Source: a virus
Lineage: Duplodnaviria; Caudoviricetes
Virus record (IMG/VR): IMGVR_UViG_3300033066_001150
Span: 33,979 to 97,978 of that record
Length of the DNA: 64,000 nt
Reading direction: 5' to 3' (one strand)
The position numbers and the translations under genes are program-made. Positions within the stretch are counted from its first letter, which is position 1. Each line of letters opens with the position of its first letter. Under the pieces are notes generated by a model. It was not told the DNA's origin, made no database searches, and was given only the letters and a program-made list of their open reading frames with translations. Positions 1,868 through 16,375 of this stretch are shown piece by piece.

Positions 1868-2082
1868 TGCCCTCAGTCTCTTTCCCTGCTCCGCTTCTTC
1901 CCCAGCCGGTTCCCCGGGAACGTCAGTGTCTCCGGTGTAATCGGCTTTTCGTATCTATGGGCCCCAGCAATCGCATCTGTGAGGATTGTCAGGACAAGAA
2001 CAAACGACAAGGTCGCCGGGCCAGCAAAGAGTCCAATTGCGGCTGTTGCACATCATTAGGTCGAACACCTCGCGGAGATTAG
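1867..2082 (+). CDS. Small Zn-finger protein
   Basis: CLRC...NRICEDC; TAATG coupling. Confidence 0.55.
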   Translation: MPSVSFPAPLLPQPVPRERQCLRCNRLFVSMGPSNRICEDCQDKNKRQGRRASKESNCGCCTSLGRTPRGD

Positions 2083-2084
2083 AT

Positions 2085-5000
2085 ATGGCGAAGAAGAAAC
2101 CTCGCCCACGTACTGCTTCCACTCCTGTCAGTAATTTCCGTGAACAGTTGATGGACATGGCCCTCAATGCCCAGTCGACCCGCTGGGGGTATCTGCAGTC
2201 ATTGATGGACCCACGTCGGGATATTGATCAGGAGTGTGGGTACGACGCCTCCCGGGAACACGACCCGCAGCTTTATCGGGAACTGTTTGACCGGAACCCT
2301 ATCGCCTCCCGGGTCAATAAACTGTTCCCGTCCGAGACGTGGGGACTTCCCCCTGAAATCTATGAATCGGAGGACCCCAAGGCCAAGACCCCATTTGAAG
2401 AGGCTTGGTTGGAACTGGGGGCCTCCTTGGGTGGGGAGAGCTGGCACGAGGACTTGACTTGTTCGTCTATTTGGGAAGTGCTCCGTCGGGCGGATATTCT
2501 TTCGGGGATTGGTCACTTTGGTGTGATCCTGCTGGGCCTCAGTGATACGGCTGATTTGTCTGAACCCGTAGAAGAGATTGACAAAGAGGGTAAGAGCGTA
2601 TTCACCGCGAAGAAGAAAAGCGGGAATGTTCGAAACGCCAAGCAGCCACGCCGTCTGTTGTACATGCGGGTCTTCGACGAAACCCAAGCCACCATCCAGA
2701 GCCTCGAGACCGATCCCAGCAACCCCCGCTACGGACAACCAACTCACTACAATATCAATTTCTATAATGTGAATAATCAGTCCGATGGGCAAATTGTGTC
2801 CTCTGTGGGGACCAAGGTTGTTCACTGGACCCGTATTATCCATGTCACGGATAACGTTCTTTCTAATGAACTGATGGGTGTGCCCCGGTGCAAGCCAGTG
2901 TTGCATCGACTGCTGGACCTGAACAAGCTTTACAGCGGGTCCGCGGAGATGTACTGGAAAGGAGCCTTCCCCGGCTTGTCCATTGAAACACAGCCCCAGT
3001 TGCAAGGGGATGTGGAAATCGATGCGGAAGCTATGCGCTCGCAGATGTTCGACTACATGAACAGTCTGCAACGCTATCTGACATTGACCGGGATGTCTGC
3101 CAAGACCTTGTCCCCCACGGTGGTCGACCCCACAACGCAGATCAATGTGCAGTTGGAAGCCATTTGTATTGAGTTGGGTGTACCGGTCCGAATTTTCAAG
3201 GGCAGTGAACGTGGGGAACTGGCTTCCAGTCAGGACGCTGCGGCTTGGTTGGACCGGGTTAAAGATCGCCAGCGGATGATTACAACGCCGCGGCTGGTGG
3301 TCCCCTTAGTCAACCGGCTGATTCAAGTGGGGGTGTTGCCGGTTCCCAAGAAGTACGTGACTCATTGGCCGGATATGGCGTCTCTGAGTGAGGAAGAACA
3401 AGCCCGCGTCGGGACACTGATTGTTGACGTCATGGCGAAGTATATCCAAGGCGGCTTGGAAGTCATGATGACACCGATGGACTTTATGATGCGGCTGTTA
3501 CACTTCTCACAGGAGGAGGCCGAGGGGATTTTGGAAGCCGCTATTGAAGCTGCGGACACACAGCAGCAACTCACAACCGACCCTGCCGCTGGACAAGACC
3601 CCGGACAAGGTGGGGCGCCGCCTTTGGGACCGGATGGACAACCCCTGCCCATCGGGCCGGATGGGAACCCTGTTGGACCTGATGGTAAGCCGGTGGAATT
3701 GGGACCGGATGGACAACCGCCCCAGCAAGTGGATGAGGACGGGAAACCTGTGGAACCCGTGGACGAAGAAGGGAACCCGGTGGCGGGACAACAACCCACC
3801 GGGTTCCCTGTCCCGGGTAAAACACCCCCACACTTGGCAGCCTTTGCCAAACAAGCCGCACGTACAGGACGGCCCATTCCTCCGGGGCAAAAACAAGTGG
3901 CTCCGGGACAAGGGAAGCAGCCCATTCCCAAGAAGAAACCACAAGTCCGTAATAGACTGGCCGGGATTGTGGGACAGGCCGTGGACAAGGCCCGGCGCGT
4001 CTGGAATAACAAAGAGGTATACCCCAAGATCAAGGCAATGGGTCTGTTTCTGCGTGAGACCGGACAAGCCATGCCCGGCTATGGTCAAATCTTCTATAAG
4101 ACTGATGGTTCGGGTCAGTGTTGGTACGTGGGCGGGGATGGGGATGGGGACGGTTTCTACAAACTGGTTCAACGCAAACTGAAGACCATCCCCGGTGTCA
4201 AGTCTGTGACCTACGAAGCCGAAGTTTTCCCACCAAAGAATAATAAGTGGCATCAGGTCTACCCCCAGCAGAGGGCATGGGTGGGCAATGCCTTTTGTCC
4301 GACCGGTCCCGGTGGGGGACAGGACAATAGCTGTGCTCCTAAGGGAGGAACCGGACCCACAGATAGTCAACGAATCAGTGCCACAGTGCTAATCATGAAA
4401 ACAAAGACAAGCACTATGGGAGAGAAAGGTACTATCCGCGAAGAAAAACGCCACACAGTCTCTATCAAAGATAAGGAAATTGGGACTATTGTTGAAAGAC
4501 GGATCGCTAAGTCGGCGACTCAAGGTGGCGGTTACGAAAAGGTGATGGAAGCTGTTTATAAGGATGGGACTGTTCTGGGGCAGGTCAGCAGTCTTGTTCT
4601 AGGCAAGGAACGGTTGGCCCAGCACCGTTTGGAGAGAAGCAAGGCTAAGGCGGGGTCCACATCCAACGTCTTCTGTCCCACGGGACCGGGAGGTGGGGTG
4701 GACCCAACCTGTTCCCCCAAAGGTGGCGGCGGTGGAGGTGTCTCCGGCAAGGGGTCCGGTCGCATTTATAACCCGGACGTTGAGGAACGGGACTCGGCAG
4801 GGGTTACAAAGGCAGCCCGTGTGGGAGTGCCTGCCGAACACGTACCGCCTCCACCTCCCATCGGAAAGCTTCCCAATCTGACAGAACACGAACGCGAGGT
4901 CGAATCTAAGTTCGCAGAAGCCTACGAGGCGGACCCGGATGGGGTGGCTGATAAGTTCCGCGAGCTGGTCAAGGCTTCTGCCAAACCGGGTGAGCCGTTG

Positions 5001-5720
5001 ACCTTTGGAACAGACGACGCCAAGGCCCTGACCGACGTGTGGTCCCACCCCGACCAAGACCAGCGTGCGGAGTACCGGGCCAGTCTCAACACTCCCTTAC
5101 ACCAGACAGCGAACGCGATCGCTAAGCGGGCCTTCGTGCGTGAGTTGGACAACCTGCAGGAAGGGGATGAGATTCTGGTGACCGTGGGTGGCTGTGGGGC
5201 TGGTAAAGGTTATGCCCTCAAGAATGTGCCCGAAGCCTTGGCAATGAAGCAGGGTTCCAAGATTATTTGGGACAGTGCCGGAGACCAGAATGCTACGGAG
5301 AACCCGTGGATTCAGAAGGAAGCGGAAGCTCGTGGACTGAAAGTCAACTATGTCTACGTGCATGCTGACCCTTATAAGGCATGGGCCGACCCGGAACGTG
5401 GGGCGATTCAACGGGCCAAAGATCCCAAGGATGGGCGAATGGTGGACGCCAAGGTGTTCGCCGATAGTTATGCCTTGGGGATTAAAAACCACGCGGCGTT
5501 CTATGAAGCGAACAAAGACAACCCCAGTGCTAAGTTTGCCTTCTTGGATAACCGGACGAAACCCAGCCTTATGGATATGATTCCGGACGAAGGGCTGCAG
5601 TTGGACCGCCACGAGTTGTCCAAGTTTGCCGTGAAAGCTGTGGAACAGGCACAAGCCCCGGATCGTGTGGTTCGTGGGGCCTTGATCGGGCAGCGTATCT
5701 GGGCAGGAGAAAACATCTAA
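2085..5720 (+). CDS. Portal protein (DUF1073-like) with C-terminal polyprotein extension ending in a zeta-toxin-like P-loop kinase
   Basis: GGAG RBS before ATG 2085; N-terminal ~490 aa portal-like (VHWTRIIH, GSAEMYWKGA, GVPVRIFKGSERGELASSQD); Pro-rich linker; two tag motifs; VTVGGCGAGKG, IIWDSAG, VYVHADP..A..RA...GRMV of zeta-like kinases. Confidence 0.85.
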   Translation: MAKKKPRPRTASTPVSNFREQLMDMALNAQSTRWGYLQSLMDPRRDIDQECGYDASREHDPQLYRELFDRNPIASRVNKLFPSETWGLPPEIYESEDPKAKTPFEEAWLELGASLGGESWHEDLTCSSIWEVLRRADILSGIGHFGVILLGLSDTADLSEPVEEIDKEGKSVFTAKKKSGNVRNAKQPRRLLYMRVFDETQATIQSLETDPSNPRYGQPTHYNINFYNVNNQSDGQIVSSVGTKVVHWTRIIHVTDNVLSNELMGVPRCKPVLHRLLDLNKLYSGSAEMYWKGAFPGLSIETQPQLQGDVEIDAEAMRSQMFDYMNSLQRYLTLTGMSAKTLSPTVVDPTTQINVQLEAICIELGVPVRIFKGSERGELASSQDAAAWLDRVKDRQRMITTPRLVVPLVNRLIQVGVLPVPKKYVTHWPDMASLSEEEQARVGTLIVDVMAKYIQGGLEVMMTPMDFMMRLLHFSQEEAEGILEAAIEAADTQQQLTTDPAAGQDPGQGGAPPLGPDGQPLPIGPDGNPVGPDGKPVELGPDGQPPQQVDEDGKPVEPVDEEGNPVAGQQPTGFPVPGKTPPHLAAFAKQAARTGRPIPPGQKQVAPGQGKQPIPKKKPQVRNRLAGIVGQAVDKARRVWNNKEVYPKIKAMGLFLRETGQAMPGYGQIFYKTDGSGQCWYVGGDGDGDGFYKLVQRKLKTIPGVKSVTYEAEVFPPKNNKWHQVYPQQRAWVGNAFCPTGPGGGQDNSCAPKGGTGPTDSQRISATVLIMKTKTSTMGEKGTIREEKRHTVSIKDKEIGTIVERRIAKSATQGGGYEKVMEAVYKDGTVLGQVSSLVLGKERLAQHRLERSKAKAGSTSNVFCPTGPGGGVDPTCSPKGGGGGGVSGKGSGRIYNPDVEERDSAGVTKAARVGVPAEHVPPPPPIGKLPNLTEHEREVESKFAEAYEADPDGVADKFRELVKASAKPGEPLTFGTDDAKALTDVWSHPDQDQRAEYRASLNTPLHQTANAIAKRAFVRELDNLQEGDEILVTVGGCGAGKGYALKNVPEALAMKQGSKIIWDSAGDQNATENPWIQKEAEARGLKVNYVYVHADPYKAWADPERGAIQRAKDPKDGRMVDAKVFADSYALGIKNHAAFYEANKDNPSAKFAFLDNRTKPSLMDMIPDEGLQLDRHELSKFAVKAVEQAQAPDRVVRGALIGQRIWAGENI

Positions 5721-5881
5721 TGGCGATCACTGAGAACGCAGAAGGTCAATGGTGGGACGAAGAGGCTGACCGGGTGAACCGGATGGCGGAACTGGCCCGT
5801 CAAAAGGGAATGGTCATTTCGGTGACCCCCAAGGCAAAAGCAAAGGTCAGCAAAAAGAAACCCACCAAGAAGGAGAAATAA
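5720..5881 (+). CDS. 53-aa protein (MAITENAEGQWWDEEADR...KKEK), not in ORF track
   Basis: TAATG overlap with portal stop and with the next ORF; GGAG RBS. Confidence 0.6.
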   Translation: MAITENAEGQWWDEEADRVNRMAELARQKGMVISVTPKAKAKVSKKKPTKKEK

Positions 5882-6093
5882 TGCGGGACCTCCTCAAGCA
5901 AGAAACAACGTGCCTCAGTTCTGTTTGCAAAGAGTGTGGTCGACCGCTCCGGCACGGCGCCAAGGAACTGGATAAACATGGGACGTTGTGTGATGCTTGT
6001 TGGGCGGACCGTGAGATTCGGATACAGGAACACCAACGCCGTATTCAGCGGGATATCAAACGTCTAGGGCTCCGGGGGAAACGGGAATGTTAG
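5881..6093 (+). CDS. Small Zn-finger protein
   Basis: CKECG...CDAC; AAGGAG RBS. Confidence 0.55.
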   Translation: MRDLLKQETTCLSSVCKECGRPLRHGAKELDKHGTLCDACWADREIRIQEHQRRIQRDIKRLGLRGKREC

Positions 6094-6401
6094 ACAGATT
6101 TACTACAGTCATCGAAAAGCCGTTTCCACTCGAGGCCCACGACCGATCAACCCCTTCGGTGGGGGAGTTCTGGGTCTTTGTGGAAGACGGGAACCCGGTG
6201 GCGGTGGAGTTCGTGTGTCCGTGTGGGTGCGGTCATAACCTCCACACACCGCTCGGACTGTCATCTCCGCATCACTGGGAATACCGGGCTGGGAGTGAGG
6301 GGCCGACTTTGTCCCCTTCTGTTCGTTGGACGAGTGGGTGTAAAGCGCATTTCACGGTGACCAATGGCAAGATTCATTGGTACTCTGATTCTGGGAAGTA
6401 G
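6087..6401 (+). CDS. DUF6527-like Cys/His protein
   Basis: FVCPCGCGH...W...PTLSPSV...C.AHF.VTNGKI.W pattern. Confidence 0.6.
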   Translation: MLDRFTTVIEKPFPLEAHDRSTPSVGEFWVFVEDGNPVAVEFVCPCGCGHNLHTPLGLSSPHHWEYRAGSEGPTLSPSVRWTSGCKAHFTVTNGKIHWYSDSGK

Positions 6402-6403
6402 AC

Positions 6404-9400
6404 ATGCCACGGACCATTCCGCAACCTCGGGGCTTTTATAACCGCCGGCTCGGTCAGGGTCTCACACGTCGGGACCCCACCCGCACGGCGACCTTGCGGA
6501 AGATATTTTCTAATGAACTGCGACGACGGATGAGTCGGTTGTTTGCGGATTCGTGGAAGCTGTTGGAAGATAATGGTCTGACAGAGAACGCCTTCTGTCC
6601 GACAGGTCCGGGCGGTGGAGTTGACCCAACCTGCAGTCCAGATCAAATTAGTATACAGCAGGCTTTCGATAGAATGCCATTCGGAGACAACCCCAAGGGG
6701 TACACATGGGCTTCGTTGTCTCTGACTACCTTGGACTCCCTGTTGAAGACAGGAAAGCTCGGATTGATCCATGATGTTGGGGAGTTGTCCGAGGACAGTG
6801 TATTATCTAAAGTGAATTCTAAGAAACTCAACCCTCTAATTGTTACGAAAATAGGGCAGCGGTTTCTTGTTGTGGATGGAAACCATTCTCTCGAGGCGGC
6901 CCGTCGTCTTCGGGTGGATTCTGTGAAAGCCATTGTTCCTAAGAAGTCCCTCTTGTCCTTGAACGCCTTCTGTCCCACTGGAAAGGGCGGTGGTCAAGAC
7001 AATAGTTGTTCCCCTTCCAACAAAGGCATGTCTGCTCCGTTTGAAGCGGTGATGGGTCATTGGGACGCCATGCGCTCCAAAGACGCCTATAAAACAATGG
7101 GAAAGATCTGGAAATCGGACTACGAGGGCACTCGTTGGTTCGACTACACACCAAAGCCGGGGACCAAGGCTTATAAAGAGTTGGATGCTTCGATTAAGTC
7201 CGGAGAACTTGTCCGGGAGTTTGAGGAGCGGTTCGCCTCGGAAGATAAGGAAGTGATGATGATTATCCATCCTTCCTCAGATGACATGTACAACCGAGAA
7301 ACAGCAAAAGTCTCGGTCTACACTTCTTCTAATCGTAACGAAGTCACTCCACATGACCAACCCTTGTCTGGTCGCATTCTGACTCATAATCATCCAGATG
7401 GGGCTAACCTATCCTTGTCTGATGTAAAAACTGCGGTCCGGAAAGGAGTCCAGGAAATTAGGGCGGTTACTCCAGACGGGACCGTGTACAGCCTCAAAAA
7501 GGCAGAAAGCTACTATAAAAAACCAGATGGGACACAACACAAGGCGGTTCGTGGACCGGGACAAGATGCTATTGATAAGCGATTAGGGGAGGCTATTCGA
7601 AAGCATGTAACTCTCGAAGAAGCTCAACTCCCCTTAGGCCAACAGCAAGCCATCTATGAAAAAGTCTGGAAGGCGTTTACAAAGGAACCGTTCGTATCAG
7701 AGTCCGCTGAAGGGGGCCAACACTACACAAGGTACGAGTACACTGTGTCCCGTCGGACGGAGAACGTCTTCTGCCCGACTGGACCGGGCGGAGGTGTGGA
7801 CCCCACATGCTCTCCTTCCAATAAAGGGACAGCGAATGTACCGCAAACTCCGGAAGAGTGGGAAGAGCATTTCCAACATATCAATTTTCTAGGAACGAAG
7901 CGAGTTGTAGAGGACCGTGCAAAAGAGTGGAAGTATCACGCCCCGGTAAACGTGGAAAACGCCGTTGGTCGAAACTTTGAACGGGGTGGGGTCCAGTGGG
8001 AGGAAGGCGGAAATTGCCAACTGGAAACCGGAGTGGTGACTATTTACTCCCGGTCCGTTGGTAGTTCCGTGGAAAATGTGGAACGGATTACAAACCATGA
8101 ACTGATGCATGGTACGTTCGAAAAGGTCTATGATAAGTACCGACGAGAACTGGGGAAGATTACCATAGATCACATTCATATGGATGGGACGCTGAAAGCG
8201 GAACATTTCAACGAATTCCCCACGTATGGTCGAATTCAGGCTCTGTTGGAAAATCATGGCCAGTTCTCTTTAGGCAAGGCCCTACAAAAAGAGGACGGGA
8301 TTACGGACTATAGCCGGGCTTACTGGAAGGATTACGAAGAAGGAAAAGTCAGTTACCATATAGCGGTTCATGAGACCTTGGCGGAAATCGCAGCTATTCA
8401 TGGAACAACTGGTGTTATCCAAGGGGAAAAGGTGTGGCGGGATCTCTACAAAGGCATTCGGGACGAGTATCGGGTTCTCCAAGGTCATCAGTCCCGTCGA
8501 CGTGGTCCCGGTATCCCTAAGCCGGTCAAGAACTACTCCACGGAAACCGTTTATTTGGATGGGGATTTTCGGCGTGTCCCCCCAGAGCAAGCTGTTTTCA
8601 TTCATTGGTGGGATGACGCTGGTTCCCACTGGGGGACTCGGAAGCCCCCGACAAACAATTTCGCCTCTACGCAATTCAATGTCGACGAAGTGGGGGTGCT
8701 GACCGCGGTCCATGTTATTCAGTCCCATCTGGATTCCCGGGATGTGTTAGAACTGGAAACCCAGCCACATATCACGGTTCGGTATGGTCTCCATGATCAG
8801 GAAGCTTCGGGTGTGCGGGCGTTGTACGACAACCAAGTCCCGGTCCGGGTCAAACTGGGTGGCTTGTCCTTGTTCCAGACACCGAAGGCGGATGTGCTAA
8901 AAATTGACGTGGATTCCCGTAGTCTTCCGGCCATTCACGGGCGATTGGGCCTGCTTCCCCACACGAGCACCTTTCCCACGTATATTCCCCATTTGACAGT
9001 CGCCTATCTGCGACCGGGCACAGGTCATAAATACGTGGGGAAAAGCGGTCTGGAAGGGACCGTGTTGACTTTTGATAAGTTGGTGTTCTCGGATGACAAC
9101 CGTCGGCAGACTACCGTGTCCAACGCTTTCTGTCCGACAGGACCGGGGGGTGGACAGGACAATTCCTGTCCACCTAATAGACAGGCGGAAAGTAGCAGCC
9201 TTGTCGTTCCAGTACGGTACACAGGAAAGAAGGGAACGCCTGTAGAGGTAGTCCACAACCCCACTGAAAAAACACTGAAACGATTAGTGAAAAAGGAAAG
9301 GCTCAAGGGGTTGTTGGACCTCAAAAACGGTACATGGCATTTCTGGTCAGAGGAAGATGGGGAGCATGAAGATGTAGCCAGAGGAATGGGACTTTCCTCC

Positions 9401-10837
9401 GGTAATGTGTTCCGTGATGGGATAGAGTATGTTCGCCTCTATGCTATAAAGGACCCTCTTAGTCTGGAGGCTCGGATAGCCACGGCTTCCCATGTGGACA
9501 CACCACTGCCGCGAACACCGTTTCGGGTACACAACGCCTTCTGTCCGACAGGACCGGGAGGAGGTGTTGATCCGACTTGTAGTCCAAAGGGTGGTTCTAG
9601 TCCTGTGACGAAAGCGATCAGGGAATATGGACCAGTTTTGGCCGAGAGTCGTCAGGGTGGGTACACACTTCGAGTACACGACGAAAATCCAAAGTCGGAG
9701 GGACAACCAGCCCATATAAGTGATGAGGAAAAACCTTTTTCTGGTGCTGGTCGTATGACCATCGAGTCCCCAGATGGAGAACTTGTAATCGCTGGGAAGT
9801 GGATGGATTGGGCGGAAGTACATTACCCATCCGACTACACAAAACTCCCGAAAAAAGACAGAGCTGCTCTAGAAGCACAAGAGCAGCTAAAATACGATTT
9901 ACAGAAGAATTTCCATTTTCATAAGGAACGGGGTGGTCTAGTCGCCAACACCTACGACCCTGTCCGTTATCGAGTCTCCAAGTTCGTAAAAGAGTTCACC
10001 GCCCGTGTCAAGTCCACGGTCAAGGATAAACCGTGGTGGGTTGGCTTTATCAATTCTGGATATCAGACGGGTGTGGGTCGAGCATATGACGATCTGAACA
10101 AACCAGCTCTGATGACACCAGAAGAACGCAAAGCTTATCAGGCCGAACGACGGTCCTTCGTTCGGGGCGTTGTAAAGGCGTCCGGTCCGACTGCTCAGAA
10201 GTTGTATGCCTCTGTGGAAGAGGATATTGACCGGATTACAAGTCAGTTGGGAGACAAGCTGCGGGTACAATTGAAACAGGCCCTTGCCGAGGGGTTGTCC
10301 TTACGCAAAGTTGCTAAGGGGATTCTTGCCAAGGTGGAGGAGGAAGGGTTGCGACGGGCCACAAACGTCGCGAACTATCGCACAGTGGAGGCCCATAACG
10401 AGGGTCAGTTAGCGGCCTTTGAAGACTTGGGTGTGACGGATATCGGTGTGTTGGTAGAATGGACCGTGGCTGGGAACCCGTGCCCACTGTGCAAGCCGAT
10501 GGCCGGTGTGGTGCTTCGGCCCAAGGACGCTCATGGATTGATACCCAGACACGTCCATTGTCAGTGCTGTTTCGAGGTCGTGGGAAGTGGGTTCGGGGCT
10601 GATAAGGAGGACCTGATTGTAGACCGATCGGGGATTCGTAAGGCTATCAAGAAATCCATTTCCCGGGAACGTAAGCAGGGCACGTGGAAAGACAAGTTGG
10701 AAGCCACACAATGGAAAGGCCGGTCGGTGCGGGTGGAAGGGCGGCCCTTGTTCAATGAGGAAGCCTCCCCAGCACTTCGGGCTTTCAGTCAATTCGTGAC
10801 TTCGCACAAAGCCGCACAGGTCGAGGAAACACCATGA
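6404..10837 (+). CDS. MuF/SPP1 gp7-like head morphogenesis protein interrupted by a polyvalent cargo array (ParB-like, JAB, HExxH peptidase, 2H phosphoesterase, unknown domains)
   Basis: N-term RRDPTRTATLRKIF and C-term EW..AGNPCPLC...IPRHVHCQC typical of MuF; internal VVDGNH, THNHP..LSLSD, HELMH, HIT...HLT motifs; five tag copies. Confidence 0.88.
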   Translation: MPRTIPQPRGFYNRRLGQGLTRRDPTRTATLRKIFSNELRRRMSRLFADSWKLLEDNGLTENAFCPTGPGGGVDPTCSPDQISIQQAFDRMPFGDNPKGYTWASLSLTTLDSLLKTGKLGLIHDVGELSEDSVLSKVNSKKLNPLIVTKIGQRFLVVDGNHSLEAARRLRVDSVKAIVPKKSLLSLNAFCPTGKGGGQDNSCSPSNKGMSAPFEAVMGHWDAMRSKDAYKTMGKIWKSDYEGTRWFDYTPKPGTKAYKELDASIKSGELVREFEERFASEDKEVMMIIHPSSDDMYNRETAKVSVYTSSNRNEVTPHDQPLSGRILTHNHPDGANLSLSDVKTAVRKGVQEIRAVTPDGTVYSLKKAESYYKKPDGTQHKAVRGPGQDAIDKRLGEAIRKHVTLEEAQLPLGQQQAIYEKVWKAFTKEPFVSESAEGGQHYTRYEYTVSRRTENVFCPTGPGGGVDPTCSPSNKGTANVPQTPEEWEEHFQHINFLGTKRVVEDRAKEWKYHAPVNVENAVGRNFERGGVQWEEGGNCQLETGVVTIYSRSVGSSVENVERITNHELMHGTFEKVYDKYRRELGKITIDHIHMDGTLKAEHFNEFPTYGRIQALLENHGQFSLGKALQKEDGITDYSRAYWKDYEEGKVSYHIAVHETLAEIAAIHGTTGVIQGEKVWRDLYKGIRDEYRVLQGHQSRRRGPGIPKPVKNYSTETVYLDGDFRRVPPEQAVFIHWWDDAGSHWGTRKPPTNNFASTQFNVDEVGVLTAVHVIQSHLDSRDVLELETQPHITVRYGLHDQEASGVRALYDNQVPVRVKLGGLSLFQTPKADVLKIDVDSRSLPAIHGRLGLLPHTSTFPTYIPHLTVAYLRPGTGHKYVGKSGLEGTVLTFDKLVFSDDNRRQTTVSNAFCPTGPGGGQDNSCPPNRQAESSSLVVPVRYTGKKGTPVEVVHNPTEKTLKRLVKKERLKGLLDLKNGTWHFWSEEDGEHEDVARGMGLSSGNVFRDGIEYVRLYAIKDPLSLEARIATASHVDTPLPRTPFRVHNAFCPTGPGGGVDPTCSPKGGSSPVTKAIREYGPVLAESRQGGYTLRVHDENPKSEGQPAHISDEEKPFSGAGRMTIESPDGELVIAGKWMDWAEVHYPSDYTKLPKKDRAALEAQEQLKYDLQKNFHFHKERGGLVANTYDPVRYRVSKFVKEFTARVKSTVKDKPWWVGFINSGYQTGVGRAYDDLNKPALMTPEERKAYQAERRSFVRGVVKASGPTAQKLYASVEEDIDRITSQLGDKLRVQLKQALAEGLSLRKVAKGILAKVEEEGLRRATNVANYRTVEAHNEGQLAAFEDLGVTDIGVLVEWTVAGNPCPLCKPMAGVVLRPKDAHGLIPRHVHCQCCFEVVGSGFGADKEDLIVDRSGIRKAIKKSISRERKQGTWKDKLEATQWKGRSVRVEGRPLFNEEASPALRAFSQFVTSHKAAQVEETP

Positions 10838-12240
10838 ACTCAGATATGACTGACGAAGAATACAATCTGGCACTTCTCCGGAAGTTCAGTCGGGTCTCCA
10901 CACGAAACGCCTTCTGTCCTACTGGTCCGGGCGGGGGACAGGACAATTCGTGTTCGCCGAAAGGGGATTCTGCCTATCAGGAAATGGGGAAACGGGCTGC
11001 TTTTCTACAACTTGAGACCAATGACAAAAAACTCAAGGACGCCTATCTGGGCAGCCAATCGGCTTCTTACGTGTCGGGTCTTGCGGATAAAACCAATGAA
11101 ATGGAAGACAAGAAGCGATGGAGGGCTTTGCATACAGACGCCGAAACCAGTCACAAAGCGGCATTACGTGCCTTGAAGAAGCTGGACGGAGACAAAGACC
11201 TAATCCAATACCATAAGGAAGCGTCCCAGCATCATAGCAATGTCTTAGGCGGTGCGGGGGCCCTTCGTCACTCTACTTACGTCCGTTCGGATATTGGGAA
11301 AAAGCGCCGGGGCGGATCGACACGGAATGCTTTCTGTCCGACTGGTCCGGGTGGGGGAGTAGACCCAACATGTAGCCCCTCCTCCACCACCAAAGGCGGC
11401 GAGGACCTTTACAGCGCAACCCTCGGGAAGGACAAGGTGTGGCGTGTGGGGAAATTACCGGTCCCAGACCACATTCGCAAGCTGGCTATTCCCCCAGCAT
11501 GGACCAATGTGGAAATCAACCCCAACCCCAACGGGACAGTCCTAGCTAAGGGGTTGGATTCCAAGGGCCGGGTCCAGACACGATATAGTGATACACATAC
11601 GGCCCGTCAGTCGGCTGCCAAGTTTGGTCGGACCCGGGAACTGCTCAAAAAGCGCGAACAGATTTTCAAGGAACTGGATAAGGACGCCAAGGACCCCACA
11701 CTCAAAGAGCATGCGGAGTGTCTGAAAGTCATTATGCAGACAGGAATGCGTCCCGGAAGTGATAAGGACACCAAAGCCGAACACGAGTCCTTCGGGGCCA
11801 CGACTTTGCTGGGTCGCCATGTAATTCCCCAAGCGGACGGCAGTGTGGTTCTCCGGCTGGCAACCGGCAAGAACAAAGGCCGGGAGGTCGACTTTCCCAT
11901 TCAGGACAAGGCCACGGCCGCTATGCTGCGGGCGCGGGCTAAGGAAACTGGCAAGTCGGGTCGTTTGTTTGGAACAACGGCAGCCCAGTTGCGGAATTAT
12001 AGTAAGACGAAAGACGGAGGTGGCTTCAAGACGAAGGACCATCGTACGGCGCTGGGCACGGAGACCGCACTGCGGGCTATCAAAGGGATTAGTAAACCTA
12101 GCACCGAGTCCGAATATAAGTCCCGAGTGAAGGAAGTGGCGACTCGTGTTGCTGCGGTTTTAGGGAACACGCCTCCAATCGCCCTCAAGTCCTACATCGA
12201 CCCGCAGGTCTTTACTGCTTGGAACAAGGGATTGAAATGA
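10834..12240 (+). CDS. Type IB DNA topoisomerase preceded by two tag motifs and a helical unknown domain
   Basis: LAIPPAWTNV, GLDSKGRVQ.RY, GMRPG, KDHRT, LGNTP.IALKSYIDP: R-K-R-N-Y catalytic set of bacterial/viral TopoIB. Confidence 0.92.
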   Translation: MNSDMTDEEYNLALLRKFSRVSTRNAFCPTGPGGGQDNSCSPKGDSAYQEMGKRAAFLQLETNDKKLKDAYLGSQSASYVSGLADKTNEMEDKKRWRALHTDAETSHKAALRALKKLDGDKDLIQYHKEASQHHSNVLGGAGALRHSTYVRSDIGKKRRGGSTRNAFCPTGPGGGVDPTCSPSSTTKGGEDLYSATLGKDKVWRVGKLPVPDHIRKLAIPPAWTNVEINPNPNGTVLAKGLDSKGRVQTRYSDTHTARQSAAKFGRTRELLKKREQIFKELDKDAKDPTLKEHAECLKVIMQTGMRPGSDKDTKAEHESFGATTLLGRHVIPQADGSVVLRLATGKNKGREVDFPIQDKATAAMLRARAKETGKSGRLFGTTAAQLRNYSKTKDGGGFKTKDHRTALGTETALRAIKGISKPSTESEYKSRVKEVATRVAAVLGNTPPIALKSYIDPQVFTAWNKGLK

Positions 12241-12407
12241 CAAACCCTCTTTATGATACAGACGCAGATGCTAAGTGGGATGTCAATCCAGCTGATTGGA
12301 GAAATCTTCCGGATAGCGATCTCACGGACGATGACCAAGACGTCCCCACCCCCAAGCATGTCAAGGATGTGCTGGGCTTCGACCCCGACGAAGAGGATTG
12401 GGAATAA
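12237..12407 (+). CDS. Small acidic protein coupled to TopoIB
   Basis: ATGA overlap; 56 aa, Asp/Glu-rich, DWR...TP...VLGFDP. Confidence 0.65.
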   Translation: MTNPLYDTDADAKWDVNPADWRNLPDSDLTDDDQDVPTPKHVKDVLGFDPDEEDWE

Positions 12408-12409
12408 AT

Positions 12410-12682
12410 ATGACAGATGCCTTGTCTAGTTTGACAAGTTCACGGGACTTGACGTTCACTCAACATCGTATGGTCGAACTCCTCCGGGACGAGAGACCCC
12501 ACACACGGTTTGAACTGCGCCAGTGTCTGCGAGATGATCAGGGCACATTGGAAACAATGCGTGTGCACGTATCCCTGCTTCGGAAGAAACTGGTCCCGCA
12601 AGGGTACACGATTCGCAGTGAAAAGCTGGCGGGCGAGTGCTACTATCGCCTTGTCGCTATCACTCATTTGGGGTCGGAATAA
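12410..12682 (+). CDS. Winged-helix DNA-binding protein (OmpR/PhoB C-terminal-like)
   Basis: LT..Q..MVELL...TRFEL....TMRVHVSLLRKKL...I......YRL. Confidence 0.7.
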   Translation: MTDALSSLTSSRDLTFTQHRMVELLRDERPHTRFELRQCLRDDQGTLETMRVHVSLLRKKLVPQGYTIRSEKLAGECYYRLVAITHLGSE

Positions 12683-12754
12683 CTGGTTTATCCGCTGGTA
12701 AAAAAAATTTAACTCTGTAGAGTGTTCCGGACTCTGTCGTTACTCTCGACAGCC

Positions 12755-15700
12755 ATGGAACACTATACCTTCAACTTCACGGGTCGGGCGCGGCGTGAGA
12801 AGCTTCACGGTCGTGAGTTTCTTGTTGTTCCCCTGACAATGATCGTCCCCGGTGTCCTCAACGGAAGCCAAGGGGCGTTATTCTATCCCCCCAGCGAAAT
12901 TAAGCGGAATTCGCAGGCGTGGAATGGTATCCCGTTGACGGTGGGTCACCCCACACGTAACGGCCAGCAACTCAGTGGTCGGGACCCCTCGGTGTTGAAC
13001 GAGACCGGTGTGGGGTTTGTGTTCCATGTCCGTTCCGAAAGCGGTAAGCTGAAAGGCGAAGGTTGGTTTGACGTTGAGGCGGTTCGGAAAGTTGATAATC
13101 GAATCTACGACGCCATTATCAATGGCCGTAAGATGGAACTGAGTACGGGCCTCTTCACGGACAATCACCCGGCGACCCCCGGTTCCAGTTACAATGGGCG
13201 TCCGTACACCCATGTCGCCCGGAACTATCGTCCGGATCACTTGGCTATTCTTCCTGATCAGGTTGGAGCATGTTCCGTGGAAGATGGGTGTGGGGTCAAT
13301 GTCAACATAGCAGCTGATCAAGAAGAGTGTTCCTGTGGCGGTCAGTGTGATGAATGCAAGGCCGGTTTGGAAGAAAACCAAGCTGAGGGGTGCACCTGTG
13401 ACACGTCAGGCCCCGAGGGGTGTCCGGTTCACGGCGACACCGAGAAGGTTACCAACTCCAAGCAAGTGATCTGGAACGAGATTGGCAAGGTGTTGGGGAT
13501 TCTTGAAGCAGTAGAAAATGGAATTGTCCAACCACACTCCAAGAATACGGGACGATTCAAATCACCTAGTGCGGGCACGGGAAAAGGGCCTGTCCACGAA
13601 GCCGCTCAACGAGGTGCTTTGGCACTAGACCCAGATGATCATGCTAAGGGCGCCTCCGCCAAAGCCGAAGCAGATGTTGGGACCAACCCAGCTAGCTGGG
13701 TGGAGGATGAGGATATTTGGGATCGAGCTAAGAAGGCAGCGGATGCTGGGGAGTACGACGCCGACACTTATTGGGCTGTCGTGTCCCATATCTATAAACG
13801 GATGGGCGGCAAGTCCAAGTCGGAAGGGACTACCGACAACGCAGACGACGACTGCCAGTGGGTGACCGCTAGTGGGACCCCTATCTGTATCAAGGGCGGG
13901 GAAGTCAAGAAGGGCCCTTCTGCTCTCAAAAAAGCAGCCGCCAGTGACGGCAAGAAAAGTTCCCACTTCAAAACCAAGGACCGGGACGAAGTCGCCCAGA
14001 AAGAAGGTTTCCGCAAACATAGTGACAAACAGAAGGCACAGGACAAGGCGTTGGGGAAAGCCAACAAAGACGCCATGGATAAGGACCTTGGAGATCTGAA
14101 AAAAGAGCTCTTTGGCAAACAGGGGAAGGCTCAGGCTGCCGGGGAAGTCCACAAGAGGGACCCCATGTTGACCGTTAAGGGCGCCGCCAAAGTGATTGGC
14201 AAGCATCTCAAGTCGGGTCTGTCTAAGGCCGGCGCTCTTGCGGATATGATTGGAACAAAACTGCTGGGCAAGGACGACTTCGAAGCGATCAAAAACATCC
14301 CAGATGATGTGAAATCCCGGTTCCGGAACTTGTTCAAGAAGGGCAAGTTCACGTCCAATGGGGTTGTAGCAATTCATCCAGTCACATTGGAGTGCCTCGT
14401 GGAAATGGGTCTTGTCTACAACGCTCGTGTGAACAACGCTTTCTGTCCAACCGGTCCCGGTGGCGGTCAGGACAATTCCTGTTCCCGGTACGGTGACGGT
14501 GGTTCCTCTAAAGAAAAGGCCGTGGCCAAAGCTTTAAGCAACTTCAAGATCAAAGAGAACGGGGAATGGTCTTCTGTTAAGGTGGGGTCCCGTGCTTACA
14601 AGATTAGAAAAGTCGGTTCCGGTTACGAAGCTGTCAGTCCTCTTAAAACAAGGACAATTGGGAAAACCGCAGAATCCGCGTTGACCTCTGTTATAGATGT
14701 TCGTGACATCCCAAAGGGAACCGCCACGGACATCGGGGCCAAAGGCCAACAATTCAATAACCCCAAATCCGATGAGGACGCCCAGTTCTTTAAGTCCCGG
14801 GCAAGTGCTGAGGCATTTGTGAAGGAAGCGACGGACAGGGGGTATGATGTAGACTATTCCCACAAGGGAGGCACGTCCCAAGTCCGCATTCAAGGTGTGA
14901 CAGACGACAACAAGAAAGAAATCCGGGCCCTTGGTGATAAGCACGGTCGTGAGAAATCGATCTGGGAACAACCTGTCCCTCCACCACGTGGGACCGCCGC
15001 GAAGGACTTGGAAAAGTCCGCGGTTAGTAAACGCCAACTCGCCAAGGAGTTGAAGGCGGAACGCGCAGCACGGGAAGCCGCCGCAAAGGCCCCTCGAAAA
15101 GATGAGGAGGTGTTTGCACGGTGGAAAGCCAAACAGAAGAAAACGAACAACGCCTTCTGTCCTACTGGTCCTGGTGGGGGTCAAGATAACTCGTGTTCGT
15201 CCAAAGGTGGAGGTGGAGGTGTTAAGGTAGGGGACAAGGATGCGAAAGGCCGCACAGTAATTTCCGACGAGGTCGCATCCATGGGGGCGTCTCTAGCAGA
15301 CAAACTCAACACTGCGGGTCGCAAAAGCGATGCGGCCGTAGAGGTATACTCCAATGCTAAGTATCATCGGCTGAAGAGAGAGCAGAAGAAAGCACCTGAG
15401 CTCGAAAAGAAAATGAAGGAAGTCACAAAGCAGTATTATAAGGCCCGCGACGAAGCAGAGGCTTTTGAAAAGAAACATGGCTTGTCTGTTGTCGACGCAT
15501 GGGAGGCGGATCGCGGTCGAGGTTGGCCTAGCTACAAGGTGGACACAAGAACTGACACACGTCCTAAGTTCGTACGGCAGTCAGATTCTGAGCCACACAA
15601 AACTGAAAATTCGTCGGTGGGGAATCGCTCCCACTCCGCACGACGCCCACGGTTGGGAGCGAATGTTGTAGGAGTTCGAGATATGAAGCGGGGACAGGTC

Positions 15701-16375
15701 ATCGACGCCCTCGTGAGCAACTGTGATTGCTTTGACGAGGAAGATCGGGACACGTTGAACAGCCTCGAAGACGGCAAGCTGGTCCGACTCTATCAGAGTC
15801 TGATTGGCAACGCCACTTATGAGGACGAAGAAGAGGAAGCGCCGGCCGACGACGAAGAGATCATGGAAGACGACGAAGAGATGGAAGATCCGGCTCCGAA
15901 GAAGAAGCCCGGTGGATTCTTTCAGAAGAAGGCCATCGCCAATCGCCGAAATTCGTCGGATGCCATTGCGGCATCCATTCTTCGCAGTCGACGCAAACCC
16001 ATGTCGGCGGATGAGTGGTTTGGTACCGCTCCTCCGGAAATCAAGTCGGCTGTCCAGAACGCCATGAAGCTGGAAGCGGAAACGAAGCGGGGCCTGCTGG
16101 ACCGTCTTACGGCCAACGTCGCCGACGACAAGGTCCAGTCGGTGCTCAATTCCCTCAAGGACAAGTCCATCGAAGAACTCGAAGGACTGCTGTCCCTGTT
16201 GCCGCCGCCGCGGGCCATCAACGCCCCCAGCTTTATTGGGGCCGCGGTGCCGTTCCCGGGTCGCACCACGAACGAACAAGCCATCAGCAATGATGACGAT
16301 GATGTTCTGCCACTGCCCACCATCAACTACGCCGATGAGTTCGGGACTCGGCGCAAGACTGCCACGGTTTCGTAG
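12755..16375 (+). CDS. Prohead protease (DUF2213-like) fused to inserted cargo domains and a C-terminal scaffold
   Basis: VPGVLNG, WNGIPLTVGHP, ELSTGLF, RPDHLAILPDQVGACS..DGCG; charged helical C-terminus; position before decoration/MCP genes; two tag copies. Confidence 0.88.
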   Translation: MEHYTFNFTGRARREKLHGREFLVVPLTMIVPGVLNGSQGALFYPPSEIKRNSQAWNGIPLTVGHPTRNGQQLSGRDPSVLNETGVGFVFHVRSESGKLKGEGWFDVEAVRKVDNRIYDAIINGRKMELSTGLFTDNHPATPGSSYNGRPYTHVARNYRPDHLAILPDQVGACSVEDGCGVNVNIAADQEECSCGGQCDECKAGLEENQAEGCTCDTSGPEGCPVHGDTEKVTNSKQVIWNEIGKVLGILEAVENGIVQPHSKNTGRFKSPSAGTGKGPVHEAAQRGALALDPDDHAKGASAKAEADVGTNPASWVEDEDIWDRAKKAADAGEYDADTYWAVVSHIYKRMGGKSKSEGTTDNADDDCQWVTASGTPICIKGGEVKKGPSALKKAAASDGKKSSHFKTKDRDEVAQKEGFRKHSDKQKAQDKALGKANKDAMDKDLGDLKKELFGKQGKAQAAGEVHKRDPMLTVKGAAKVIGKHLKSGLSKAGALADMIGTKLLGKDDFEAIKNIPDDVKSRFRNLFKKGKFTSNGVVAIHPVTLECLVEMGLVYNARVNNAFCPTGPGGGQDNSCSRYGDGGSSKEKAVAKALSNFKIKENGEWSSVKVGSRAYKIRKVGSGYEAVSPLKTRTIGKTAESALTSVIDVRDIPKGTATDIGAKGQQFNNPKSDEDAQFFKSRASAEAFVKEATDRGYDVDYSHKGGTSQVRIQGVTDDNKKEIRALGDKHGREKSIWEQPVPPPRGTAAKDLEKSAVSKRQLAKELKAERAAREAAAKAPRKDEEVFARWKAKQKKTNNAFCPTGPGGGQDNSCSSKGGGGGVKVGDKDAKGRTVISDEVASMGASLADKLNTAGRKSDAAVEVYSNAKYHRLKREQKKAPELEKKMKEVTKQYYKARDEAEAFEKKHGLSVVDAWEADRGRGWPSYKVDTRTDTRPKFVRQSDSEPHKTENSSVGNRSHSARRPRLGANVVGVRDMKRGQVIDALVSNCDCFDEEDRDTLNSLEDGKLVRLYQSLIGNATYEDEEEEAPADDEEIMEDDEEMEDPAPKKKPGGFFQKKAIANRRNSSDAIAASILRSRRKPMSADEWFGTAPPEIKSAVQNAMKLEAETKRGLLDRLTANVADDKVQSVLNSLKDKSIEELEGLLSLLPPPRAINAPSFIGAAVPFPGRTTNEQAISNDDDDVLPLPTINYADEFGTRRKTATVS

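What the first reader, a model, noticed from the sequence alone, without database searches (positions are those of the whole stretch)
10834..12240. Stand-alone tagged TopoIB: cargo with no structural carrier
Seen: this ORF has no portal, MuF or protease part, only a 24-aa leader, tag, ~125-aa helical domain, tag, and an intact TopoIB (Tyr at 12193). Inference: the best evidence that the tag or leader is itself a targeting signal and not just a linker. A virion-delivered topoisomerase could relax DNA during packaging, ejection or early transcription.
Basis: partly seen in the sequence, partly recalled or inferred. Interest (0 to 1): 0.75.

Follow-up and report, generated by a model that had tools for sequence, protein, structure and literature searches.

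The report
Tagged topoisomerase cargo in phage head operon
An uncultured 98-kb phage encodes, between its head-assembly genes, an apparently active DNA-relaxing enzyme (type IB topoisomerase) that carries two copies of an undescribed 18-residue peptide tag; in the two closest relatives found the same enzyme is the last module of the MuF head protein, so it is probably cargo loaded into the capsid and injected with the DNA.

Summary
ORF 10834-12240 (468 aa) reads 24-aa leader, tag, 124-aa helical module, tag, then an intact type IB topoisomerase (R306, K346, R404, N445, Y454; Tyr codon at 12193). It has its own Shine-Dalgarno site and overlaps the MuF stop as ATGA.

The tag, [TV]xN[AV]FCxTGxGGGxD[PN][ST]C, occurs 11 times in the 98-kb genome. 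All copies lie in the portal, MuF, TopoIB and protease ORFs. A profile of it finds 1,468 protein clusters, and I found no paper describing it.

"No carrier" needs qualifying. In the two closest relatives found (74-78% identity) the same cassette continues the MuF polyprotein in frame. Here about 98 extra bases supply a stop, SD and ATG, so this looks like a recent gene fission, not a frameshift.

More distant phages (L009, L054, L055, L056) keep TopoIB as a separate ORF with an unconserved leader plus the tag. L055 has six such coupled ORFs in a row. So the tag is more than a linker.

My best reading (about 0.45) is a capsid-loading and processing signal read by the gp21/assemblin-fold head protease, as with the T4 capsid targeting sequence. 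No cleavage or packaging has been shown.

Earlier notes of this scan report portal- or MuF-fused TopoIB on other DNA.

The parts
10823..10827 (+). Shine-Dalgarno-like GAGGA, 6 nt before the ATG
   Evidence: Read directly from the sequence.
10834..12240 (+). Tagged TopoIB ORF, 468 aa (P0001). Its ATG overlaps the MuF stop as ATGA.
10834..10905 (+). 24-aa leader. It is not conserved in relatives. Its end, LALLRKFSRVSTR, resembles the MuF tail PALRAFSQFVTS.
   Evidence: AF2 gives a low-confidence helix at aa 7-21.
10906..10953 (+). Tag copy 1, NAFCPTGPGGGQDNSC (aa 25-40)
   Evidence: Block-mean pLDDT about 35-43, coil.
10954..11325 (+). Orphan basic helical module (aa 41-164, pI 9.7), found only in the closest relative P0002
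11326..11373 (+). Tag copy 2, NAFCPTGPGGGVDPTC (aa 165-180), directly before the TopoIB N-domain
11374..12237 (+). Type IB topoisomerase, N- and C-domains. Catalytic codons start at 11749 (R306), 11869 (K346), 12043 (R404), 12166 (N445) and 12193 (Y454).
12237..12407 (+). Translationally coupled 56-aa acidic ORF (18 D+E, 4 K+R, pI about 4). It is conserved just downstream of TopoIB in relatives (immediately after it in four of five) and is fused as the leader of the next tagged cargo in L009 and L055.
6404..10837 (+). MuF polyprotein (1,477 aa) with 5 tags. It is the ancestral carrier of the TopoIB cassette. Its tail PALRAFSQFVTS (10769-10804) is a second copy of the pre-tag segment.
12722..16375 (+). 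Head maturation protease (DUF2213 domain, gp21/assemblin fold) followed by two tags and C-terminal modules. The likely true start is ATG 12755.
1986..5720 (+). Portal protein with a C-terminal extension carrying 2 tags

Best explanation
The ORF encodes an intact bacterial/poxvirus-type topoisomerase IB that belongs to the phage's set of capsid-carried, host-injected enzymes. It is the terminal module of the MuF cargo array. In this genome it has become a separate, translationally coupled gene.

The conserved peptide [TV]xN[AV]FCxTGxGGGxD[PN][ST]C is a disordered short linear motif. I propose it is the address label and cut mark of this phage group. A prohead-core component binds it, most economically the gp21/assemblin-fold DUF2213 maturation protease encoded 0.5 kb downstream. 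Binding would draw tagged proteins into the assembling prohead. On maturation the protease would cut at or near the tag. For this ORF that would remove the leader and the helical module and release a TopoIB of about 290 aa, which stays in the head and enters the cell with the DNA.

Shown: gene structure, an intact enzyme, the tag's distribution and conservation, the fused and split relatives, and the protease fold.

Inferred: binding, cleavage, packaging, ejection, and what the enzyme does after entry. Relaxation of phage or host DNA early in infection is a guess by analogy with the virion-packaged poxvirus enzyme (my own knowledge).
For: - Intact TopoIB: Pfam hits above cut-off, the full pentad, pLDDT above 90 for aa 183-468, and best fold matches 3m4a, 2f4q and variola 2h7f.
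- Head cargo: the gene lies between MuF and the protease. Two close relatives have it in frame at the MuF C-terminus. Most of the 120 listed long homologues are fused to portal, MuF or DUF2213.
- Tag as signal: all 11 copies in the genome lie in four head ORFs. Selection is on the peptide. In 103 tags from related loci, N(-2), D(+10) and C(+13) are invariant or nearly so, although the search pattern did not require them. A tag profile finds 1,468 clusters at E<=1e-3, with up to 10 copies per protein.
- The tag is kept behind unconserved leaders whose pre-tag part is 10-90 aa, on separately translated cargo ORFs.
- Both AF2 models leave the tag as coil (block-mean pLDDT about 32-49), followed by a Gly/Ser-rich stretch.
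- A protease is at hand: the DUF2213 domain has invariant His, Ser and Asp-His positions, and its best fold match is T4 gp21, then herpesvirus proteases. It is present in 8 of 10 tag-bearing records, including all 5 that are at least 82% complete. In 16 of 120 DUF2213 homologues a tag is present, in about half of them just after the protease domain (aa 184-250), where protease-scaffold fusions would be expected to self-cut.
- Precedent: the T4 CTS propeptide is both a targeting element and a gp21 substrate (PMC9026906, PMC7411985).
Against: - There are no proteomic or biochemical data. No cultured phage in INPHARED carries the tag.
- An 18-residue motif with two invariant cysteines is far longer and more rigid than known prohead-protease sites, which are about 3 residues. 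This points to something beyond plain substrate recognition.
- AF2 did not dock the tag onto the protease domain in cis.
- DUF2213 proteases are common in cultured phages, none of which matched the tag. Co-occurrence in tag-bearing records may only reflect shared ancestry.
- L054 has tagged cargo but no tag on its MuF or protease proteins.
- Portal, MuF and protease already have their own routes into the prohead, so their tags need a function other than targeting.
Confidence: 0.45

Rival explanations
1. The tag is a pure docking peptide and is never cut. It binds the inner capsid surface, the scaffold or MuF, in the way encapsulin cargo-loading peptides bind an HK97-fold shell. Several tags per protein would give multivalent tethering.
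For: The motif is short, conserved and disordered, and is followed by a flexible Gly/Ser linker. It is retained on separately encoded cargo behind leaders that share no sequence. Its length and invariance suit a binding epitope better than a cleavage site.
Against: Tags sit at successive module boundaries inside polyproteins that are already anchored through portal, MuF or protease domains. Docking does not explain that placement. No receptor has been identified. Encapsulin peptides are terminal (own knowledge), whereas most of these tags are internal.
Confidence: 0.2
2. The tag is only a cut mark that separates modules. The cutter could be the head protease or a peptidase carried as cargo (the HELMH zincin or the RadC-like JAB module of the MuF protein, as Iyer et al. 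proposed for polyvalent proteins). The stand-alone TopoIB would reach the head by other means, or its tags would be leftovers of the recent fission.
For: Tags lie at domain boundaries. The split from MuF is recent, because P0393 and L010 are fused. An HExxH motif and an HNHPDG...SLSD motif lie in MuF segments 4 and 3. A tagged reprolysin-like peptidase occurs in L028. Iyer et al. propose metallopeptidase processing of polyvalent proteins (PMC5512222).
Against: Separately translated cargo ORFs in distant phages keep the tag under strong constraint (L009, L054, L055, L056). A separator would be useless there. Leaders are too variable to be the shared signal.
Confidence: 0.15
3. The two invariant cysteines, with the Asp, form half of a metal site or a disulfide. 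This would bridge tags to each other, or to Cys/His pairs in the MuF core (HVHCQCC) or at the protease domain end (GACSxxDGCG). Cargo would be tethered to carriers like a zinc hook.
For: C(+1) is fixed by the search pattern, but C(+13) is 102/103 and D(+10) is 101/103 without being required. Conserved Cys pairs lie at the end of the DUF2213 domain and in the MuF core. One mechanism would explain both internal and N-proximal tags.
Against: The idea is purely speculative. AF2 gives the tag no structure. DUF2213 proteins of phages without tags appear to share the same Cys pair. No metal data exist.
Confidence: 0.08
4. TopoIB is not packaged. It would be a late-expressed helper for replication, recombination or DNA packaging that happens to sit in the head operon, with tags that are neutral relics.
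For: Some large phages encode TopoI-type enzymes among their DNA-metabolism genes (PMC7824862). Many homologues are short stand-alone proteins.
Against: This TopoIB clade is repeatedly fused covalently to portal C-termini, MuF and the head protease. The tags are under peptide-level selection. Gene order next to head genes is conserved in L009, L054, L055 and L056.
Confidence: 0.09
5. In this phage MuF and TopoIB are still made as one protein, by a programmed -1 frameshift or because of a sequencing error at the ATGA overlap.
For: The TopoIB frame is open for 24 codons upstream of the ATG. Close relatives are fused in frame.
Against: The difference from L010 is about 98 nt in three blocks, not a 1-nt indel, and it brings a stop, GAGGA and ATG. 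I saw no X_XXY_YYZ slippery heptamer in the MuF frame between 10762 and 10834 (read by eye).
Confidence: 0.03

Closest known systems
T4 capsid targeting sequence (CTS) and gp21 processing of IPI-III and Alt; SPN3US ejection-protein propeptides (PMC9026906, PMC7411985)
   Same: Enzymes encoded separately from structural proteins carry a short N-terminal element that takes them into the prohead core. A gp21-type protease then removes it, and the enzymes are injected with the DNA. The protease here has the gp21/assemblin fold.
   Different: The T4 CTS is a weakly conserved 10-20-aa leader ending in a 3-residue L/I-x-E site. Here the leader is unconserved, and the shared element is an invariant 18-residue Cys/Gly motif. 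It also recurs inside portal, MuF and protease polyproteins. No [LI]xE lies in the first 60 residues. Cleavage is not shown.
Phage-type polyvalent proteins and MuF- or portal-fused effectors (Iyer et al. 2017, PMC5512222); MuF polymorphic toxins (Jamet et al. 2017, own knowledge)
   Same: Effector domains are attached to MuF or portal in the late operon and are presumed to be injected. Relatives P0393 and L010 carry this TopoIB at the MuF C-terminus. Neighbouring modules (a weak ParB-like match, a 2H/Acb1-like domain, JAB- and zincin-like motifs, a weak zeta-like P-loop match) are typical of such proteins.
   Different: In that paper 'topoisomerase' occurs only in the reference list, and my term search found no conserved inter-module motif. 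Here the cargo is a separate ORF. Processing was proposed there to depend on a zincin peptidase domain, not on a shared peptide tag.
Bacterial and poxvirus type IB topoisomerases (D. radiodurans TopIB 2f4q/3m4a; variola 2h7f)
   Same: Two-domain fold and the R-K-R-N-Y pentad. The poxvirus enzyme is also carried in the virion (own knowledge).
   Different: Sequence identity to solved structures is about 20-25%. This protein has an N-terminal extension of about 180 aa with two tags, and it sits in a phage head operon.
Encapsulin cargo-loading peptides (own knowledge)
   Same: A short, conserved, disordered peptide on a flexible linker addresses unrelated enzymes to the lumen of an HK97-fold shell.
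   Different: The sequence motif is different. Encapsulin peptides are terminal and are not cut, while these tags are mostly internal. Binding to the capsid protein was not tested.

Membership tests
Type IB topoisomerase (bacterial/poxvirus TopIB) | Matches to the catalytic-core and N-terminal-domain profiles above curated cut-offs | tested here: met
   PF01028 scores 47 bits (cut-off 23.7) and PF21338 scores 36.1 bits (cut-off 27).
Type IB topoisomerase (bacterial/poxvirus TopIB) | Catalytic pentad Arg-Lys-Arg-His/Asn-Tyr | tested here: met
   R306, K346, R404, N445 and Y454 align with R137, K174, R239, N280 and Y289 of 2f4q. R306, R404, N445 and Y454 are invariant in 62 homologues. K346 is invariant in the 9-sequence alignment.
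Type IB topoisomerase (bacterial/poxvirus TopIB) | Two-domain clamp fold | tested here: met
   The AF2 model has pLDDT above 90 for aa 183-468. The top Foldseek matches are 3m4a, 2f4q, 3igc and 2h7f, all with probability 1.0.
Type IB topoisomerase (bacterial/poxvirus TopIB) | ATP-independent relaxation of supercoiled DNA through a 3'-phosphotyrosyl intermediate | not testable with these tools
   This needs a relaxation assay on recombinant protein.
Phage polyvalent protein (Iyer et al. 2017) | Two or more effector domains in one polypeptide | tested here: not met
   This ORF has one recognisable enzyme plus an orphan helical module. The fused relative P0393 does meet the criterion.
Phage polyvalent protein (Iyer et al. 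2017) | Linkage to MuF or portal in the late (head) operon | tested here: met
   The ORF is ATGA-coupled to the MuF ORF. Orthologues are fused to MuF or portal.
T4-type CTS cargo | Short N-terminal propeptide ending in the protease site L/I-x-E | tested here: not met
   There is no [LI]xE in residues 1-60. The conserved element is a different, 18-residue motif.
T4-type CTS cargo | A gp21/assemblin-type prohead protease in the same head module | tested here: met
   The DUF2213 domain's best fold match is T4 gp21 5jbl (TM by target 0.64, probability 1.0, E 0.011), followed by herpesvirus proteases. PHROG 530 'head maturation protease' matches at E 1e-6.
T4-type CTS cargo | Incorporation into proheads and removal of the propeptide | not testable with these tools
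   This needs virion or prohead proteomics. No cultured phage with the tag was found.
Encapsulin-type cargo-loading peptide | Terminal peptide that binds the lumen of an HK97-fold shell protein | not tested
   No complex prediction was possible with these tools. Most tags here are internal.

The most novel reading that the evidence does not exclude
The 18-residue Cys/Gly peptide is a portable, self-sufficient capsid-addressing and processing code. A large group of uncultured phages (at least 1,468 protein clusters) would use it to load arbitrary enzymes into the head, and a type IB topoisomerase would be one of its most conserved passengers. Its recognition would involve chemistry beyond ordinary protease-substrate binding, such as metal bridging or Cys-dependent self-cleavage.
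Probability: 0.3. Interest if true: 0.8.

Novelty: new variant of a known kind. Interest (0 to 1): 0.6.

Why it matters
How phages choose which proteins travel inside the capsid is understood in mechanistic detail mainly for T4 and its relatives. A conserved peptide that marks portal-, MuF- and protease-linked modules as well as free-standing enzymes in over a thousand protein clusters would be a second, sequence-defined loading and processing code. It could be tested directly with tag-GFP fusions and might be useful for loading proteins into phage heads.

I found no paper describing a type IB topoisomerase as injected phage cargo. It suggests that some phages relax DNA at the moment of entry, which parallels the virion topoisomerase of poxviruses.

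The natural fused and split pairs (P0393 and L010 against this genome) amount to a ready-made experiment on whether covalent attachment to MuF matters.

Tried and rejected
1. A shared "tag-module-tag" domain in the portal and TopoIB ORFs. The 40% match comes only from the tags and their equal spacing. With tags removed, no inter-tag modules resemble each other (BLAST E>0.01; shuffle z<1.6).
2. Naming the helical module. Pfam and PHROGs give nothing credible. The protein atlas returns only generic helical bundles.
3. A programmed frameshift at the ATGA. I saw no slippery heptamer, and the junction differs from L010 by about 98 nt.
4. The tag as a known family. Pfam shows nothing at E<=10. The only literature hits for the motif string are in unrelated parechovirus papers. 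It is not in Iyer et al. 2017.
5. Cultured phages with the tag, to find proteomics. tblastn at E<=10 gave only two spurious hits. A scan of 185,579 species genomes gave one MAG contig.
6. AF2 docking of the tag onto the DUF2213 protease in cis (P0384). The tag stayed at pLDDT about 32-37 and undocked, so the result is uninformative.
7. Promoter and terminator scan of 5600-13000. Counts were no higher than in shuffles.
8. DNA-level repeat or recombination signal as an explanation for the tag. Synonymous spelling differences argue against it.
9. Literature on DUF2213 and on phage virion TopoIB. I found nothing relevant.
Full report
**What is there**

The window is bases 33979-97978 of a 97,978-bp IMG/VR virus record estimated 90% complete. 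Bases 1986-16375 hold four long + strand ORFs:
- a portal (Phage_portal_3, E 4.5e-21);
- a 1,477-aa MuF protein;
- the 468-aa ORF of the finding;
- after two small ORFs, a 1,217-aa protein that begins with a DUF2213 domain.

The finding's ORF is as described:
- ATG 10834 is the first start codon in its frame. GAGGA lies 6 nt upstream, and the ATG overlaps the MuF stop as ATGA.
- It reads 24-aa leader, tag, 124-aa module, tag, TopoIB.
- Pfam finds only the two TopoIB families, both above cut-off.
- The pentad R306/K346/R404/N445/Y454 aligns with that of D. radiodurans TopIB. Tyr454 is encoded at 12193.
- An AF2 model built with 62 sequences gives pLDDT above 90 for aa 183-468. Its best fold matches are bacterial and variola TopIB.
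- Both tags and the leader are low-confidence coil or helix. The module forms four helices of moderate confidence.

**The tag**

NAFCPTGxGGG[QV]D[NP][ST]C occurs 11 times in the whole genome, always in the four head ORFs. The shuffle expectation for the DNA pattern is 0.66. The copies are 87% identical as peptide and 74% as DNA, and half of the codons for identical residues are spelled differently.

In 103 distinct tags from related loci, several positions that my search pattern did not require are invariant or nearly so: N(-2) 103/103, D(+10) 101/103, C(+13) 102/103. Position -4 is T or V in 71/103. A Gly/Ser-rich stretch follows the tag.

A 36-column profile finds 1,468 representative proteins at E<=1e-3 among 1.84 billion. 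Of these, 409 score at E<=1e-10, and single proteins carry up to 10 copies.

The strict DNA pattern gave 35 matching stretches in about 28 IMG/VR contigs and one contig among 185,579 species genomes, a Moraxellaceae MAG. tblastn found the tag in no cultured phage of INPHARED. Pfam has no model for it. I found no paper with the motif, and Iyer et al. 2017 does not mention it.

**"Stand-alone" is a recent state**

The two closest TopoIB relatives found are fused to MuF.
- P0393 (1,252 aa; TopoIB part 74.6% identical) is a single ORF: MuF N-terminus, tag, 2H domain, tag, MuF core, tag, module, tag, TopoIB.
- In L010 (P0002, 78% identical) the MuF C-terminal tail runs in frame into the leader and tag. 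That contig is rearranged further upstream, so P0393 is the cleaner witness.

Relative to L010, this genome has about 98 extra bases at the junction. They supply the end of MuF, a stop, the SD and the ATG. The MuF tail (PALRAFSQFVTS) and the TopoIB leader (LALLRKFSRVSTR) both resemble the single pre-tag segment of L010 (SELKQFNLFTTV). This suggests a fission by local duplication; the direction of change is an inference. I saw no slippery heptamer, so a programmed frameshift is unlikely.

**The tag is nevertheless more than a linker**

More distant phages keep TopoIB as its own ORF behind an unconserved leader and a tag.
- L009: 39% identity, the same leader-tag-module-tag-TopoIB plan, and 13 tags in its head module.
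- L054: MuF without a tag, then an ADP-ribosyltransferase with tags, then tagged TopoIB.
- L056.
- L055: six consecutive ORFs (884, 312, 352, 391, 345 [TopoIB] and 495 aa), most overlapping by 4 nt. Each starts with a different 30-85-aa leader followed by the tag.

Elsewhere, the part of the leader before the tag is as short as 10-13 aa, in front of a MuF-HNH protein and a reprolysin-like peptidase. Tagged stand-alone zeta-toxin and ADP-ribosyltransferase ORFs also occur.

The helical module is shared only with P0002, and inter-tag modules are unrelated to one another. The tag is therefore the only element common to all these proteins.

**TopoIB as cargo**

Among homologues of 257-819 aa, at least 14 of 120 are fused to portal or MuF. 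Others are fused to NUDIX, ART, InPase or Acb1 domains, and TopoIB is always the C-terminal part in the fusions I scanned.

Among homologues of 820-2,340 aa, 132 score at E<=1e-20. Of the 120 listed, about 71 carry a portal family, 13 MuF and 4 DUF2213 (my count from the table).

Other lineages place different short motifs before TopoIB: W-x-E-S-x-H-P-R...G-x-F, or N-C-G...G-F-Q-x-G-N-x-C. Tags of this general kind therefore seem to be lineage-specific.

**The likely reader of the tag**

- The DUF2213 domain has invariant His, Ser and Asp-His positions in 60 homologues. Its model is high-confidence.
- T4 gp21 is its best fold match (TM by target 0.64, probability 1.0, E 0.011), followed by herpesvirus proteases. 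PHROGs calls a matching family "head maturation protease".
- A close homologue is present in 8 of 10 tag-bearing IMG/VR records, including all 5 that are at least 82% complete. These phages are kin, so this is weak evidence.
- In 16 of 120 DUF2213 homologues a tag is present, in about half of them just after the protease domain (aa 184-250).
- AF2 did not dock the tag on the domain.

**Reading**

The T4 CTS, a targeting propeptide that gp21 removes, is the nearest established mechanism (PMC9026906, PMC7411985). I propose that the tag serves both as address and cut mark. This would explain why it sits at successive module boundaries in anchored polyproteins and also survives on free-standing cargo.

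The motif's length and its two invariant cysteines do not fit a simple cleavage site. They keep docking-only, metal-bridging and self-cleavage readings open.

What the injected TopoIB does is unknown. Relaxing incoming phage DNA or host DNA early in infection is inference.

**Comparison and novelty**

This resembles polyvalent or MuF-fused effectors and CTS cargo, but differs in the conserved 18-residue tag and in the TopoIB passenger. I found neither described in the literature I could search.

Earlier notes of this scan describe portal- or MuF-fused TopoIB, with a tag and an acidic partner, on other genomes. My results agree. I saw the portal and MuF fusions myself, and the acidic ORF.

Noticed in passing
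window 12237-12407: A 56-aa very acidic ORF (18 D+E, 4 K+R) is ATGA-coupled to the TopoIB stop. It has conserved W-R and LGFDPDEE motifs. It lies just downstream of TopoIB in L010, L054 and L056. In L009 and L055 it is fused as the leader in front of a tag and a cargo of about 400 aa. It may be a leader module or a TopoIB partner or inhibitor.
   Followed up: partly
window 12410-12682: A 90-aa basic ORF follows the acidic ORF. It is conserved in L010 (69% identity). An 85-aa ORF holds the same position in L054, but I did not compare the two. It lies just before the protease gene and its function is unknown.
   Followed up: no
window 4287-15205 (all 11 tags): The two tag variants (..GGGQDNSC and ..GGGVDPTC) almost alternate along the genome: Q V | V Q V Q V | Q V | Q Q. 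That is 8 changes in 10 steps, about 5% by chance. It might limit recombination between neighbouring copies, or it may mean nothing.
   Followed up: no
window 6404-6586 and 9581-10834: The MuF N-terminal 61 aa (RRDPTRT motif) is separated from the MuF core by about 1,000 aa of tag-delimited cargo. The same N-terminal piece followed by a tag recurs in L021, L032, L047 and P0393.
   Followed up: partly
window 7010-9121: MuF segment 3 contains a RadC/JAB-like HNHPDGANLSLSD motif. Segment 4 contains HELMH (zincin-like) ahead of a 2H/Acb1-like phosphoesterase (Pfam E 6e-6 and 1.7e-3). Neither peptidase motif reached a Pfam hit.
   Followed up: partly
window 12722-13420: The protease ORF probably starts at ATG 12755 (MEHYTFNF...), not at GTG 12722. 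Its DUF2213 domain ends in an invariant GACSxxDGCG motif, followed here by a Cys-rich stretch (CSCGGQCDEC...GCTC).
   Followed up: partly
window 4713-5717: The last portal module, after tag 2, has weak P-loop/zeta-toxin-like matches (Pfam E 0.004-0.015). A tagged stand-alone zeta-toxin ORF occurs in L026.
   Followed up: no
L010 1-1477: In this 11.6-kb contig the MuF core lies on the opposite strand to the MuF tail and TopoIB. This is either an inversion or an assembly fold-back, so the first 182 aa of P0002 may be spurious.
   Followed up: partly
proteins P0006, P0016, P0021, P0023, P0060, P0077 and others: TopoIB homologues of other lineages carry other short conserved motifs just upstream of the enzyme: W-x-E-S-x-H-P-R...G-x-F, or N-C-G...G-F-Q-x-G-N-x-C. 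Both are followed by Gly-rich linkers. They may be analogous tags.
   Followed up: no
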